Source: a virus
Lineage: Duplodnaviria > Caudoviricetes
Length of the DNA: 64,000 bases
IMG/VR virus record: IMGVR_UViG_3300034150_000083
Span: 1 to 64,000 of that record
Direction: 5' to 3' (one strand)
Part shown: piece by piece, positions 55,391 through 60,136 of the stretch
How positions within the stretch are numbered: position 1 is the first letter of the stretch
How the letters are laid out: each line of letters starts with the position of its first letter
The notes under the pieces: generated by a model
What the model was told of the DNA's origin: nothing
The model's database searches: none
The model's input: the letters and a program-made list of their open reading frames with translations, nothing else
Program-made: the position numbers and the translations under genes

Positions 55391-55882
55391 GTGCCGAACT
55401 GCTTATTCCGGAGCGTGGAGATACTCCATCTTGAAGTCAGAGGAATGGAAAATGGTTTCATGACCTCGCTACATCTGCGGGCGGTCCTGAGTAAGCCCGT
55501 CGCCACCGAGATGGGATGGCTCGGCCTACTGGAGGTCGATGGGTGGGGGCCCTCGGTCGACCTGAAGGCCAGCGTGGGGCGAGGTTCCGGCACTTTCAAA
55601 CCGAATGGCAAGCCGGACGGGTCCATGTCGATCGAGTTCGATAGCCTGGAAAAGTTCAAAGGCATCGAGGCCGAGGATGCCGGGGGGAAGGAGAAACACA
55701 GCGTCAAGTTTGTCCTCAAGACCTCCGACAAGGAGGCGTCTCTGCAGCTCGCCGCCTTCTGGATGGCGAATCAGCGTATAAACCACCACCTCCAAGTAAA
55801 ATTTCATGAATTATTGGATGCCGCCAAGCCTGAGGAAGTGAAACCGGGGGCCTCGAAAGCCAGCGCCGGCCTGGAGGGATAA
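55391..55882 (+). CDS. hypothetical protein
   Basis: SD AAGGA, GTG start. Confidence 0.7.
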   Translation: MPNCLFRSVEILHLEVRGMENGFMTSLHLRAVLSKPVATEMGWLGLLEVDGWGPSVDLKASVGRGSGTFKPNGKPDGSMSIEFDSLEKFKGIEAEDAGGKEKHSVKFVLKTSDKEASLQLAAFWMANQRINHHLQVKFHELLDAAKPEEVKPGASKASAGLEG

Positions 55883-56584
55883 GTGAACGCGCTCGATACG
55901 TGGCGTGCCAGTCTGCCGGACGTAGCCGAGGAGAGATTACCCAAGGCGCTGAAGCTCGTCGTGCCCGGCGCCCCCCGAACAAAGAAGAATTCTCCGGTAA
56001 TAGTTCGTAACGTGACAGACGCCTTCCTCAAGGACTTGATCTGGTCCTGGGAACGGGAGAAGGCGAGTCAAATGGTTAGTTTGTCCGATATCATAACGTG
56101 GCTGGAGAACCGGGAGACCATCTTCCCGCATCCCCGGCTGCTCCCCTCGCAGGCTTTCCGCGACTGGGAGGCCGCCGCCGTCAAAGCCGTCCTGCCCGTG
56201 CTCGAGCCTCTGAAACGGTACTTCCCGATTACTTACTCGTGCCACCTGATCGCCAAGGTCTACCGGGACCGGGACGCCGGCGACTGGCTCGGGTACATGC
56301 AGGGCATCAGCGACTTCCTGGAGGATATAGGTGTCGTCGAGGACGACGTGCTGATCCGATCGTATGATGGCAGCCGCCTGTACAAGGACTCGGAGAATCC
56401 GCGGGTCGAACTGTGGCTCTCCCCGTGGCACCAGGAGGCAGACACCGGACTCTTCGAGAGGCCCGCCAAGGAGTGGGCCAACCATGTAGAACCGGAACCG
56501 GAATCCATTTCGGCCGACGAGGAACAGCGCGGCGGGTCCCGTACCGGACTCTTCAGCGTGTACGGCGGTCGCCGTCATGGCTAA
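55883..56584 (+). CDS. RusA-like Holliday junction resolvase
   Basis: VPGAPRTKKNS, D.G..MQGISD.L...GVVEDD.LI, PRVEL motifs. Confidence 0.75.
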   Translation: MNALDTWRASLPDVAEERLPKALKLVVPGAPRTKKNSPVIVRNVTDAFLKDLIWSWEREKASQMVSLSDIITWLENRETIFPHPRLLPSQAFRDWEAAAVKAVLPVLEPLKRYFPITYSCHLIAKVYRDRDAGDWLGYMQGISDFLEDIGVVEDDVLIRSYDGSRLYKDSENPRVELWLSPWHQEADTGLFERPAKEWANHVEPEPESISADEEQRGGSRTGLFSVYGGRRHG

Positions 56585-57382: not shown

Positions 57383-57987
57383 CCTTCTTACTTGATACTT
57401 CGGAGGACCTGGACGTGTGCGCCCAGGACCTCGGCGTGGATCCGGTGTCGGTGGGTCAGCTCATCACGCCGCTCACCAAGTTCAGCAACCGCGGCGCCGT
57501 CTTCGCGATCGACAACGGGTGCTTCTCTGGCCTGCGTCTCGAGCCGTTCCTCGCCATCCTGGAACGCGAGAAGGCCAACCGCAAGAAGTGCATCTTCGTC
57601 ACCGTGCCGGACGTTGTCTGCTCGATGCGCCGGACCCTGGAACTGTTCCAGTACTGGCAGGAGCGGCTCCATGGGTGGCCTCTGGCATTGGCAATCCAGA
57701 ACGGCGTCGAGCACTTCAACCTGCCGTGGCCCGAGATCGACGCCGTCTTCATCGGCGGCGACGATGCCTTCAAGTCGAGCGCCCCGGCCGTCCACGTCAT
57801 CCGTGCCGCCCAAGCCCTTGGAAAGTGGGTACATGTGGGCCGGGTCAACGAACCCGTGCGCTTCCGCTGGTGCCAGGACCTGGCGGTAGACAGTATCGAT
57901 GGCAGCGGCATTAGCCAGTACTCACACCAGCGCCGGCAGATCCATGGCGGCGATCAGGTTCTTCTGGATTTGGAGCCTACCCTATGA
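57379..57987 (+). CDS. TGT/DpdA-like guanine transglycosylase candidate (short TIM barrel)
   Basis: AIDNGCF, PDVV, FIGG, VHVGRVN, DSIDGS align in order with TGT catalytic motifs; ATGA-coupled to queD. Confidence 0.6.
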   Translation: MTFLLDTSEDLDVCAQDLGVDPVSVGQLITPLTKFSNRGAVFAIDNGCFSGLRLEPFLAILEREKANRKKCIFVTVPDVVCSMRRTLELFQYWQERLHGWPLALAIQNGVEHFNLPWPEIDAVFIGGDDAFKSSAPAVHVIRAAQALGKWVHVGRVNEPVRFRWCQDLAVDSIDGSGISQYSHQRRQIHGGDQVLLDLEPTL

Positions 57988-58202
57988 ACGAACAAGAGAT
58001 TCTCAACCGGGTCCGCGAGGCGATCGCCTGCCTGGACGAGGCAGCCAACCATCTCCCGATCGACAATCGGTTCCAGCGCAAGCTACATACCCGCATCCAG
58101 GACGCGGGCGACCGACTGGTCGAGGTCCGAGAGGAACTGCAGATCGAGGTCGAGGCGGCGGAGAAGCTCCGCCGCGTGCTTGAGCGTAAAACTACTACTT
58201 AG
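57984..58202 (+). CDS. small coiled-coil protein
   Basis: ATGA coupling. Confidence 0.7.
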   Translation: MNEQEILNRVREAIACLDEAANHLPIDNRFQRKLHTRIQDAGDRLVEVREELQIEVEAAEKLRRVLERKTTT

Positions 58203-58602
58203 GCTGCGGAGTCGGAGGCAGTGTCGGAGGCTTGATGCCGCCCGTAGGAGGCTTGCCATCAGCGTCCACCAGGATCCAGCGATACCGGGCATGCTCGGTC
58301 CCGATCACGAAGACCAACAGCCAGCACTTGCCGCTGACACCATCGCCGGGGTTCAGCGGGGGCCAGATGGTTCCTGGAGGTGTCGGCGTAGGCAGCGTAT
58401 TGTCCGGCCCGACAGGAATGTGGATCGGGTAGGACGGATGCCCGCCCGAGGGCAGCGTATTGTCCGGAAGGTTCACACCTGGCGGCGTGGGAGGCAGCAC
58501 GATCGGGTTAGAGGGCCGGTGGATGGGATGGCCTTGGCCGTAGCCGGGATCGACGGGGCGACCTTCAGAATCGACGGGGATGATCATCGCAAGGGTGCTC
58601 AT
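58195..58602 (-). CDS. proline-rich protein with PDNTLP repeats
   Basis: Lone leftward gene; PDNTLP twice; C-terminal WLLVFVIG..YRWI. Confidence 0.65.
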   Translation of the reverse strand: MSTLAMIIPVDSEGRPVDPGYGQGHPIHRPSNPIVLPPTPPGVNLPDNTLPSGGHPSYPIHIPVGPDNTLPTPTPPGTIWPPLNPGDGVSGKCWLLVFVIGTEHARYRWILVDADGKPPTGGIKPPTLPPTPQPK

Positions 58603-58635
58603 ACCGCTATGGTATTCCCAATCCTGAAAAAGTCC

Positions 58636-58664
58636 TTGCGCAAAAGGAATGCTATTGATAGACT
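58636..58664 (+). promoter_or_regulatory. promoter TTGCGC-17-TAGACT with TTGCGCAA operator over the -35
   Basis: Hexamers read directly. Confidence 0.7.
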
Positions 58665-58668
58665 TGAC

Positions 58669-58779
58669 CCGTTCGACGGAAGCAGCGAGGATTGATCCCC
58701 CCGCTGTACGAACGGAATCGCCGGAAACCGGGCGGGGTATCCCCTCCAGGACCCCGCCCCCGGCTAGCCTGGAGGGCAC
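58669..58779 (+). ncRNA. structured 5' leader with H-type pseudoknot covering the RBS
   Basis: S1 58730-58738/58751-58759, S2 58742-58750/58768-58776, both 9 bp perfect; upstream hairpin 58669-58715. Confidence 0.6.
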
Positions 58780-59637
58780 ATGAAATCACTGCCATATTTC
58801 CACTGGTATCCAGCGGATGCCGAAACAGATGAGAACTTCTCTGCCATGAGTGATGAGGAGGTAGGATTCCTCCTCCGCTGCCTGAATCACAGTTGGATCA
58901 ACGGCAGTCTGCCAGCAGACCTCAAGGCACTGGCACGTACCAGGAAGGTCAACTACAACCACCTAGTGAAAATGTGGTTACGGGTAGGGCGGTGTTTTCA
59001 GCCCTCAGAAAGTGACCCTAGTCGTCTTGTAAACAAACGTCAGGAAGAGGAACGCGCAAAGGCTGTAAACAAAAGCCTTGCCGCATCAAAGTCCGTTCGG
59101 ACTCGCTACGAAAGCTCTACGAACGTAGATACGAACGTAGTACGTTCGAAGGACGTTCGTAGCGAAAACGTAGCTCTACGCGCGTCTGAATCTGAATCTG
59201 TATCTGTAGCTTCTTGTTCTTCTGATTCCGGAACGGAAAAATCTCCAGTTCTAGTAACCCCTTCGAAAGCTCGTTGGGAAGTCGACGACCAGTTCGCGGC
59301 GTTTGTCTCGGCGTGGCGGGAAGCGCAACCCAACTGCCTCCCCAGCGAGTTCGATGACGCCTACCGGCCCTTCCTGGCCCTCGCCTTCGACCAGAGGGTC
59401 GCGGCGGTCAGGGGGATCAGCCAGCGCGTCAGGACGGGCCTCTGGACGCCAGCAAAGTGGCAAATGTGCGGGAAGCCTGCCAAGTATCTCCAAGCGGAAT
59501 GGAGGCGCGTCATCCCAGAGGCGGTCGACGTTCCCCGCAAGCAATCGAAGGGAGAGATCCTGATGGCAGAAATGAACGAGTGGGCGGAAGAGGAGGATCG
59601 GCGCCGTGCAGAAGTTAACCGCCGCGCAGGCAACTAG
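58780..59637 (+). CDS. phage replication initiator (DUF1376/YdaU-like N-terminus)
   Basis: LPYFHWYPAD...MSDEEVG.LLR.L..SW..GSLP; internal iteron-like repeats. Confidence 0.8.
   Translation: MKSLPYFHWYPADAETDENFSAMSDEEVGFLLRCLNHSWINGSLPADLKALARTRKVNYNHLVKMWLRVGRCFQPSESDPSRLVNKRQEEERAKAVNKSLAASKSVRTRYESSTNVDTNVVRSKDVRSENVALRASESESVSVASCSSDSGTEKSPVLVTPSKARWEVDDQFAAFVSAWREAQPNCLPSEFDDAYRPFLALAFDQRVAAVRGISQRVRTGLWTPAKWQMCGKPAKYLQAEWRRVIPEAVDVPRKQSKGEILMAEMNEWAEEEDRRRAEVNRRAGN
59107..59225. repeat. putative iteron origin within initiator gene
   Basis: TACGAACGTAG at 59118 and 59130, inverted ACGTTCGTAG at 59153, then TCTGAA/TCTGTA hexamer tandem 59185-59208 and T-rich tract. Confidence 0.65.
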
Positions 59638-60136
59638 GCAAATCAACCGTCTGAGCGGTCTTCCCCGCTTCGCCGAACTGGGCAAGCCGGGAATCGGCGA
59701 AATGGTCCGCGTGCTTTGCGACCGTGCCTCAGGCGAGGACCATGCCGAGCGCACGGTCACCGCCTGGATCGACAACAACAAGTGGCTGCCCACTTGCGCG
59801 GAGTTGATCGAGGCGCTCGACCTGACGCCGGCGAAAACCGCGGCGCTCAAGCCGAACTGGGAGTGCGACCACTGTCAGGGGAGCGCCTTCGAACGCACTT
59901 GGCTCCTGGTGACCTACGTGCGCCATCCGAGCGGGCACCAGAAAGACTGCGAGGAGAAGGAAATCACGGCTGAGGTGGCCGCGCAACTGATAACCGAGGT
60001 CGACGGCCACTACCAGAAAGTCGCCAGCGCCGTGAAGTACTGTCGGTGCAGTTTCGGACAGGAGATCAAACGGCAGCGGATTGCCAGAATGCACGAGGAC
60101 GAACAGAAGTCTCACAAGGGCAGCAGGAGGGCATGA
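59606..60136 (+). CDS. putative helicase loader / replication partner with Zn motif
   Basis: WLPTCAEL motif, CDHC...CRC; directly after initiator. Confidence 0.55.
   Translation: MQKLTAAQATRQINRLSGLPRFAELGKPGIGEMVRVLCDRASGEDHAERTVTAWIDNNKWLPTCAELIEALDLTPAKTAALKPNWECDHCQGSAFERTWLLVTYVRHPSGHQKDCEEKEITAEVAAQLITEVDGHYQKVASAVKYCRCSFGQEIKRQRIARMHEDEQKSHKGSRRA

What the first reader, a model, noticed from the sequence alone, without database searches (positions are those of the whole stretch)
58669..58782. Perfect H-type pseudoknot occluding the RBS of the replication initiator
Seen: after promoter TTGCGC-17-TAGACT a 110-nt leader has hairpin 58669-58715, then S1 GGGCGGGGT/ACCCCGCCC (58730-38/58751-59) whose loop CCCTCCAGG (58742-50) pairs with CCTGGAGGG (58768-76), which contains the GGAGG SD 4 nt before ATG 58780. 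Loops are 3, 0 and 8 nt. GCCGG (58720-24) can alternatively pair with CCGGC (58760-64), which would block S2 and free the SD. Established: pseudoknots control translation of T4 gene 32 and IncI/IncB rep genes. Inference: an undescribed cis-regulatory RNA switch for phage replication.
Basis: partly seen in the sequence, partly recalled or inferred. Interest (0 to 1): 0.75.

Follow-up and report, generated by a model that had tools for sequence, protein, structure and literature searches.

The report
Ribosome-site-masking leader RNA before phage initiator
The message for this soil phage's DNA-replication starter protein begins with a folded RNA whose hairpin loop base-pairs with the gene's ribosome-binding site. 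About two dozen related phages keep that pairing with some 22 different sequences, so it is a real, uncatalogued control element that probably limits how much starter protein is made.

Summary
S1 is 58730-38/58751-59, S2 is 58742-50/58768-76 and covers GGAGG, and ATG is at 58780. On its own it is only suggestive, because a perfect 9+9 interleaved pair appears somewhere in 9% of shuffled windows.

Comparison settles it. A covariance model built from relatives finds the window only at 58714-58785. Across 17 aligned members, every helix covaries:
- outer helix P1a: 4 of 5 pairs changed on both sides
- small hairpin P2: 4 of 5
- loop-to-SD pairing S2, which was not in the model: 5 of 6

About 22 different S2 arm pairs exist. 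Swapping tails between phages destroys the pairing (0 of 100,000 permutations reach the native value). The nearest relative, L001, has three double compensations in S1.

Nothing in Rfam 15 matches, including int-alpA.

Whether it toggles against S2 is plausible on steric and energy grounds but was not shown.

Most likely function: translational repression of the first gene of the replication module. The trigger is unknown.

The scan has noted analogous loop-to-RBS leaders ahead of replication genes in other phages.

The parts
58636..58664 (+). Putative promoter: TTGCGC (58636-41), 17-nt spacer, TGnTAGACT (-10 at 58659-64)
   Evidence: Sequence. It matches the consensus at 7 of 12 positions and is not called by the scan. 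The whole block is nearly identical in L001. Most relatives have a -35/-10 pair 80-125 nt before the start codon. The TSS has not been mapped.
58669..58715 (+). P0: two-tier hairpin at or near the 5' end of the leader
   Evidence: MFE folds. L001 folds the same way with compensated changes in both tiers. A 5' hairpin is present in the relatives folded whose chosen segment covered it.
58720..58724 (+). P1a, 5' strand (GCCGG); pairs with 58760-64
   Evidence: Part of the nested MFE. In alignment A9, 4 of 5 pairs change on both sides.
58725..58729 (+). Asymmetric 5-nt bulge (AAACC) between P1a and P1b
   Evidence: Most members have a 3-6-nt bulge on the 5' side only (alignment A9).
58730..58738 (+).
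   Evidence: In A9, 9 of 9 pairs change on both sides. Against L001, 3 of 9 pairs are doubly compensated in a sequence-only alignment.
58742..58750 (+). S2 5' arm (anti-SD CCCTCCAGG) inside the 12-nt P1 loop (58739-50)
   Evidence: Detector result. Partner-swap test. Pseudoknot columns.
58751..58759 (+). P1b, 3' strand ACCCCGCCC
58760..58764 (+). P1a, 3' strand CCGGC
58768..58776 (+). S2 3' arm CCTGGAGGG, containing the SD GGAGG (58771-75)
   Evidence: S2 stacking energy is -17.8 kcal/mol.
58780..59637 (+). Regulated gene: 285-aa DUF1376-related replication initiator
   Evidence: 41 homologues. 15 of 24 aligned homologues match PF07120; the window protein itself does not. Weak C-terminal similarity to a protein of PHROG 'replication initiation' families. 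Iteron array inside the gene.

Best explanation
This is a roughly 110-nt structured 5' leader of the phage's replication operon, and a member of an uncatalogued RNA family. A long GC-rich hairpin (P1a, a 5' bulge, then P1b) presents an anti-SD stretch in its loop. That stretch base-pairs with the Shine-Dalgarno region just before the start codon.

In the window this makes a 9+9 H-type pseudoknot. In most relatives the SD arm lies in the loop of a small hairpin P2, which gives an intramolecular kissing complex. The pairing buries the SD, so 30S binding and initiator synthesis are held down.

Shown: the helices and the loop-to-SD pairing are conserved by compensatory change, on the sense RNA strand.
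Inferred: the sign of the effect (repression).
Speculative: a two-state behaviour in which the outer helix P1a competes with S2, and whatever factor shifts it.
For: - Detector hits: 17 of 38 unique homologue leaders, against 1.3-1.8 in shuffles and 2 of 112 other natural SD-bearing ORF starts.
- Model R2, built without the window, hits the window once, at 58714-58785 (21.6 bits, E 0.004).
- 94.8% of cells are paired. P1a has 4 of 5 pairs changed on both sides, P1b 9 of 9, P2 4 of 5, and the unmodelled S2 5 of 6. None of 500 shuffles reaches these values, and slid registers collapse.
- Native S2 averages -10.0 kcal/mol against -4.2 for swapped tails; 0 of 100,000 permutations reach it.
- WIN against L001: single-stranded linkers and the tail are identical, and changes fall in helices as compensations.
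- The nested helices hold 16 G-U and 0 A-C cells, which points to the + strand RNA.
- The motif sits before the first gene of replication modules that carry different initiator families.
- All S2 3' arms overlap or abut the SD.
Against: - There are no RNA or expression data, and the TSS is not mapped.
- The helices in the model (P1a, P1b, P2) were counted on a model-fitted alignment, which leans towards them. S2 and the WIN/L001 comparison are free of this bias.
- The known rep-gene pseudoknot of IncI/IncB plasmids activates translation.
- With P1a closed, only 3 nt (UAG) link a 14-bp stem to S2, so P1a and S2 cannot easily coexist in the window. Which state dominates is unknown: the nested fold is -28 to -34.5 kcal/mol and the knot about -34 (rough estimate).
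- 17 of the 38 homologue loci show no motif.
Confidence: 0.7

Rival explanations
1. Activating pseudoknot, as in IncI-alpha and IncB plasmids: the loop-to-RBS contact helps rather than blocks initiation, for example by holding the site in a favourable shape.
For: The same gene class (replication initiator) and the same kind of contact, a hairpin loop pairing next to the RBS. In IncI1 and IncB/O the pseudoknot is essential for RepZ translation (PMC8053102).
Against: - Here the 3' arm contains the SD itself, and in relatives it lies in the loop of hairpin P2, so pairing does not open an inhibitory stem.
- No leader-peptide ORF ends in the leader (frames read).
- No antisense promoter was called.
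- The loop lacks the UUGGCG motif.
Confidence: 0.08
2. Trans-acting lock: the P1 hairpin is released or also acts in trans, like P1 c4 RNA or plasmid antisense RNAs. Its loop would pair with the RBS of incoming related phages and so set replication immunity or incompatibility.
For: About 22 different loop/target pairs sit on similar scaffolds. Earlier scan notes read similar leaders in this way. The same 9-mer CCTGGAGGG is also the RBS of ORF 55883-56584. P1 c4 is a processed RNA that represses a gene of its own operon (reference list and text of PMC8546580).
Against: - The target lies only 8-21 nt from the hairpin on the same molecule, so cis pairing should dominate.
- Between close relatives S2 is more conserved than P1b (WIN/L001; L042/L103), so there is no sign of selection for new specificities.
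- There is no evidence of processing.
Confidence: 0.08
3. Protein operator or stability element: the fold is mainly a binding site for the initiator or another protein, or it protects the 5' end of the mRNA. SD masking would then be secondary.
For: - The conserved unpaired ACGGAA-type linker and the 5' bulge.
- Three CGGAA copies in the window leader.
- A 5'-terminal hairpin P0.
- The P0 stem carries the iteron core TACGAACG.
Against: It does not explain why the loop and the SD region covary with each other. The iteron-like P0 stem is not kept in L001, L015 or L014.
Confidence: 0.1
4. DNA-level element (operator, cruciform or part of the origin), or plain chance.
For: - The two inverted repeats are symmetric at the DNA level.
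- An iteron array lies 340 bp downstream.
- A 9+9 pair arises in 9% of shuffled windows.
Against: - Sequence varies freely while pairing is kept.
- G-U cells number 16 and A-C cells 0.
- The position relative to the SD and start codon is fixed across unrelated downstream genes.
- Shuffle and swap controls.
Confidence: 0.02

Closest known systems
repZ/repA leader pseudoknot of IncI-alpha (ColIb-P9), IncB, IncK and IncL/M plasmids
   Same: A hairpin loop in the leader of a replication-initiator mRNA pairs with a stretch at the RBS and governs initiator translation.
   Different: There the knot is required for translation, depends on a leader peptide (repY/repB), and is blocked by an antisense RNA that recognises a UUGGCG loop (PMC8053102; titles). 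Here the arm covers the SD itself, I found no leader ORF and no antisense promoter, and the host is a phage.
Phage T4 gene 32 autoregulatory pseudoknot (from my own knowledge)
   Same: A pseudoknot in the leader of a phage replication-protein mRNA that is tied to translational control.
   Different: In T4 the knot lies well upstream of the RBS and nucleates cooperative gp32 binding on an unstructured A/U-rich stretch. It does not pair with the SD.
Phage P1/P7 c4 RNA in the immI operon
   Same: An upstream structured RNA on the same transcript whose loops are complementary to the RBS region of a downstream gene. Loop and target covary between phages.
   Different: c4 is a processed 77-nt trans-acting RNA with two loop/target pairs (title; details from my own knowledge). 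Here there is one loop, the target is 8-21 nt away, and no processing is known.
Rfam int-alpA motif (RF02996) and other loop-to-RBS leaders noted by this scan before phage replication genes
   Same: Short structured leaders ahead of phage replication or integration genes, with a loop that pairs just downstream.
   Different: There is no covariance-model match to RF02996 on this genome at E<=10, nor to any Rfam family in 17 member loci. The architecture is P0, P1a/P1b and P2 in series, not the three-way junction that an earlier scan note reports for int-alpA.
TAR-TAR*-type six-base kissing hairpins and SD-sequestering pseudoknots of SAM-II and preQ1-II riboswitches (from my own knowledge)
   Same: Fully paired 6-7-nt loops between two hairpins, and a pseudoknot helix that buries the SD.
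   Different: There is no evidence of a ligand pocket. The two hairpins are adjacent on one mRNA and of unequal length.

Membership tests
Any Rfam 15 family | Covariance-model match | tested here: not met
   Within the window region 57500-60000 searched, no hit falls in the leader at E<=10; the two weak hits lie elsewhere. No hit in 17 member loci at E<=1.
int-alpA RNA motif (RF02996) | Match to the family model at or near its gathering score (35.8 bits) | tested here: not met
   No match on the whole 73-kb phage genome at E<=10.
IncI-alpha/IncB-type rep control | Hairpin loop pairs with a stretch at the rep RBS | tested here: met
   S2 at 58742-50 with 58768-76; conserved by covariation.
IncI-alpha/IncB-type rep control | Leader-peptide ORF translationally coupled to rep | tested here: not met
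   The frame that ends at TAG 58765-67 has no ATG, GTG or TTG back to the stop at 58693 (read). The only listed ORFs in the leader are a 44-codon frame that starts before the putative TSS and a 46-codon TTG frame (58692-58832) that runs past the initiator start. The 46-codon frame was not examined further.
IncI-alpha/IncB-type rep control | Antisense RNA gene opposite the target hairpin | tested here: inconclusive
   No promoter-like site on either strand of 58000-59200. The host's promoter rules are unknown and there are no RNA data.
IncI-alpha/IncB-type rep control | UUGGCG loop motif | tested here: not met
   The loop is AUCCCCUCCAGG. Family loops are C/U-rich anti-SD-like stretches.
IncI-alpha/IncB-type rep control | The pseudoknot activates translation | not testable with these tools
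   Needs reporter or toeprint assays.
H-type pseudoknot (structural class) | Two stems, with the loop of the first pairing downstream, and connecting loops long enough to cross the grooves | tested here: met
   Stems are 9 and 9 bp and loops 3, 0 and 8 nt. By rules recalled from memory this is feasible only if P1a is open. No pseudoknot-aware folder was available; the rough energy estimate is -34 kcal/mol.
Intramolecular kissing hairpins (the design of most relatives) | The SD-side arm is enclosed by its own stem, P2 | tested here: inconclusive
   Relatives have a covarying 4-5-bp P2 (4 of 5 pairs). The window has only GCC/GGC, which overlaps S2.
P1 c4-type processed antisense RNA | Processing to a discrete small RNA that acts in trans | not testable with these tools
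   No transcript data.
DUF1376 (PF07120), for the regulated gene | Pfam match | tested here: inconclusive
   The window protein has no Pfam hit. 15 of 24 aligned homologues match PF07120, best E 2.4e-9.

The most novel reading that the evidence does not exclude
The leader is a true two-state riboregulator. The conserved outer helix P1a and the loop-to-SD pairing S2 exclude each other, and an unknown factor (a protein, an RNA, or co-transcriptional timing) sets the balance. Because the lock sequence is freely reprogrammable (about 22 versions), the hairpin may also act in trans, so each phage would carry a private RNA key that decides which replication genes can be translated in a co-infected or lysogenic cell.
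Probability: 0.12. Interest if true: 0.85.

Novelty: new variant of a known kind. Interest (0 to 1): 0.58.

Why it matters
It adds a well-supported, uncatalogued RNA family to the few known cases where replication-initiator synthesis is controlled by RNA tertiary pairing. It occurs in phages and prophages linked to Acidobacteriota; two member loci come from Acidobacteriia MAGs and one from an Acidobacteriota genome, and almost no regulation is known for this group.

The motif travels with the start of the replication module whichever initiator family follows, and it survives nuclease-gene insertions behind it. That marks it as a portable control cassette.

Its short, freely variable lock sequence makes it easy to test with compensatory mutants, and it could serve as a compact translational-repression part. 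Together with similar leaders this scan has noted in other phages, it hints that loop-to-RBS locks on replication genes are common in phages.

Tried and rejected
- BLAST of the region and of the protein against deposited phage genomes found nothing.
- MAFFT alignments of the leaders (A2-A4) were not structurally consistent and were not used for counting.
- Pattern scans of viral contigs were mostly chance hits. L079 is a coding match, and 41 of 46 hits to the group-A pattern were rejected by the model.
- The genome search with R2 missed the window's own copy, so its count of 2 true hits in 151 Acidobacteriota genomes is a lower bound. L128 and L130 were false hits. L129, from an unpublished genome, was neither read nor used.
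- I looked by eye for an upstream decoy copy of the SD arm, as in earlier scan notes, and found none in WIN, L017 or L006.
- The idea that the P0 stem is an initiator-binding iteron is not supported in relatives.
- No PDB relatives were found for the initiator or for the divergent ORF.
- Literature searches found no description of this leader.

Full report
**Observation**

- GGGCGGGGT (58730-38) pairs with ACCCCGCCC (58751-59).
- The 12-nt loop holds CCCTCCAGG (58742-50), the perfect complement of CCTGGAGGG (58768-76).
- That stretch contains GGAGG (58771-75), four bases before ATG 58780.
- The connecting loops are 3, 0 and 8 nt.
- GCCGG (58720-24) can pair with CCGGC (58760-64).
- Hairpin 58669-58715 is part of the minimum-energy fold, whose z-score is -2.9.
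- A divergent minus-strand ORF starts at 58602, so 58603-58779 is an intergenic region with the leader on the + strand.

**Chance**

The 9+9 interleaved pair is unique in the 64 kb. However, 18 of 200 dinucleotide shuffles of the window contain one somewhere.

**The gene**

The 285-aa product has no direct Pfam or PHROG hit. It has 41 homologues, and 15 of 24 aligned ones match DUF1376. Its C-terminal part resembles, weakly, that of a protein which hits PHROG "replication initiation protein" families.

A cluster of TACGAACGTAG repeats in both orientations lies inside the gene at 59103-59185. Comparable 11-12-bp repeat arrays sit at the same place in homologous genes. I read this as an initiator gene with an internal origin, laid out as in lambda O (comparison from my own knowledge).

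The record is a complete 73-kb virus genome with terminal repeats. Two related loci come from Acidobacteriia MAGs.

**Comparative evidence**

I fetched 53 loci that encode homologues; 37 are unique.

A purpose-built detector looked for a hairpin whose loop forms at least 6 contiguous pairs with positions -22 to +2.
- 17 of 38 leaders scored -20 kcal/mol or better.
- Shuffles gave 1.3-1.8.
- 2 of 112 other natural ORF starts with an SD reached that score.

The pairing sequences differ widely. Examples are CTGACT/AGTCAG, CTTGTCC/GGACAAG, CTTGCGG/CCGCAAG, CCCTTAT/ATAAGGG, CCTCTTTTC/GAAAAGAGG, CTAGCC/GGCTAG and CTCCTA/TAGGAG. About 22 versions exist in all.

In a partner-swap test each upstream part was joined to every other phage's last 20 nt. 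Native pairs average -10.0 kcal/mol and swapped ones -4.2. None of 100,000 permutations reaches the native sum, and the same holds after removing duplicates. The match is therefore specific to each phage and is not just generic anti-SD against SD.

**Covariance models**

A model seeded from L017 and L052 and then rebuilt on seven members (R2) contains only the nested helices P1a, P1b and P2. The window was not used to build it. It hits the window once, at 58714-58785 (21.6 bits, E 0.004 over 462 kb).

On the 17-member alignment A9:
- 94.8% of cells are paired.
- Both-side changes occur in P1a at 4 of 5 pairs, P1b at 9 of 9, and P2 at 4 of 5.
- No shuffle out of 500 reaches the observed values, and every slid register collapses to 39-49% paired.
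- The pseudoknot columns were not in the model, so they are not fitted. They show 5 of 6 pairs changed on both sides and 85.5% paired, even though several rows are offset by one or two columns.
- The nested helices hold 16 G-U and no A-C cells, which points to RNA of the + strand.

**The closest relative**

L001 encodes an initiator 74% identical over the first 90 residues. It carries the homologous leader about 720 nt upstream of that gene, in front of an inserted endonuclease-like gene.

In a plain MAFFT alignment the promoter block, the linker, P1a, the UAG spacer, the SD arm and the start codon are identical. P1b differs at three pairs, all doubly compensated. P0 keeps both tiers with changed letters.

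**Where the motif sits**

It is directly upstream of the initiator in 17 loci. In four loci it lies upstream of a gene inserted before the initiator:
- L001, L011 and L019: a shared ORF whose L001 and L011 copies match resolvase/endonuclease PHROGs
- L012: HNH

It also precedes other initiator families: the L105 group, including L134, L135 and L137-139, and L103. It precedes an unassigned 296-aa gene, presumably prophage-borne, in an Acidobacteriota genome (L127). The motif therefore belongs to the promoter-proximal start of the replication module.

**Architecture and mechanism**

The family consensus runs in this order:
1. a promoter
2. a 5' hairpin, P0
3. a conserved ACGGAA-type linker
4. 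P1a (4-6 bp)
5. a 3-6-nt bulge on the 5' side only
6. P1b (8-11 bp)
7. a loop carrying the anti-SD arm
8. a short linker
9. P2 (3-5 bp), whose loop and 3' strand hold the SD
10. the start codon

In the window P2 is reduced to GCC/GGC, and the loop contact is extended to 9 bp, giving a clean H-type knot.

Because the 3' arm always overlaps or abuts the SD, repression of initiation is the most likely effect (inference).

Energies for the window are close: -28.1 kcal/mol for P1a plus P1b (-34.5 for the full nested optimum), against about -34 for P1b plus S2 by a rough Dirks-Pierce-style estimate. With P1a closed, only UAG links the base of a 14-bp stem to the SD arm. I expect P1a and S2 to exclude each other unless the conserved bulge makes a sharp kink. 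This is a steric argument from my own knowledge and is untested.

The evidence shows only that both helices are under selection.

I found no leader peptide and no antisense promoter, and no upstream decoy copy of the SD arm in the three leaders I checked by eye. The trigger, if there is one, is unknown.

**Comparison with known systems**

No Rfam family matches, including int-alpA, which earlier scan notes tied to similar leaders.
- The IncI/IncB rep pseudoknot is the nearest analogue by gene class, but it is an activator coupled to a leader peptide and an antisense RNA.
- The T4 gene 32 knot does not touch the SD (my own knowledge).
- P1 c4 is a processed trans-acting RNA.

Between close relatives S2 is more conserved than P1b, which argues against selection for new trans specificities.

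I file this as a new variant of the known kind "SD-sequestering leader structure". It is a new RNA family.

**Limits**
- No RNA data exist.
- No pseudoknot-aware folding tool was available.
- Model E-values are rough.
- One hit in an unpublished genome (G026) was not used.

Noticed in passing
window 59103-59185: Cluster of TACGAACGTAG-type repeats, direct and inverted at about 12-bp spacing, inside the initiator gene. It encodes the repetitive linker TNVDTNVVRSKDVRSENV. Similar 11-12-bp arrays lie at the same place in homologous genes (L015, L014, L053, L021, L044, L011/L042). It is probably the replication origin embedded in the initiator gene.
   Followed up: partly
window 58669-58715: The outer stem of leader hairpin P0 carries the iteron core: TACGAACG at 58707-14 and CGTTCG at 58671-76. 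Four of the five copies of this 8-mer in 64 kb lie in 58707-59161. It could be an initiator-binding site over the transcription start, but it is not kept in L001, L015 or L014.
   Followed up: partly
L001:1779-2504, L011:1804-2502, L019:281-1192, L012:392-826, L052:2495-3574: Nuclease genes sit between the leader and the initiator. L001 and L011 hit Holliday-junction-resolvase/endonuclease-like PHROGs. The L019 ORF shares their N-terminal motif but was not scanned against PHROGs. L012 is HNH. L052's initiator has an HNH domain inserted at residues 84-225. This looks like a hotspot for mobile nuclease insertion that leaves the leader and start codon intact.
   Followed up: partly
window 55870-55878 (also 56731, 5080-, 48022-): The 9-mer CCTGGAGGG occurs 6 times against 0.74 expected. 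At 55870 it is again an RBS, 4 nt before the GTG of ORF 55883-56584, so the P1 loop could in principle pair there in trans.
   Followed up: partly
L039:2378-2434: A second, tandem P1-like hairpin with the same P1a/P1b design and loop CTCCTAA lies just upstream of the real motif. It lacks P2 and a gene, so it may be a duplicated or decoy module.
   Followed up: no
window 58195-58602 (-): The divergent 135-aa ORF is very proline-rich. It contains two exact 17-nt direct repeats, GGCAGCGTATTGTCCGG, at 58391 and 58451. It matches no Pfam or PHROG family, and its only PDB match is insignificant (E 0.26).
   Followed up: partly
window 58677-58726: CGGAA occurs three times in the leader (58677, 58713, 58722), and there are six GGA triplets in about 110 nt. 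This may be a protein-binding motif (a CsrA-like idea); it was not tested.
   Followed up: no
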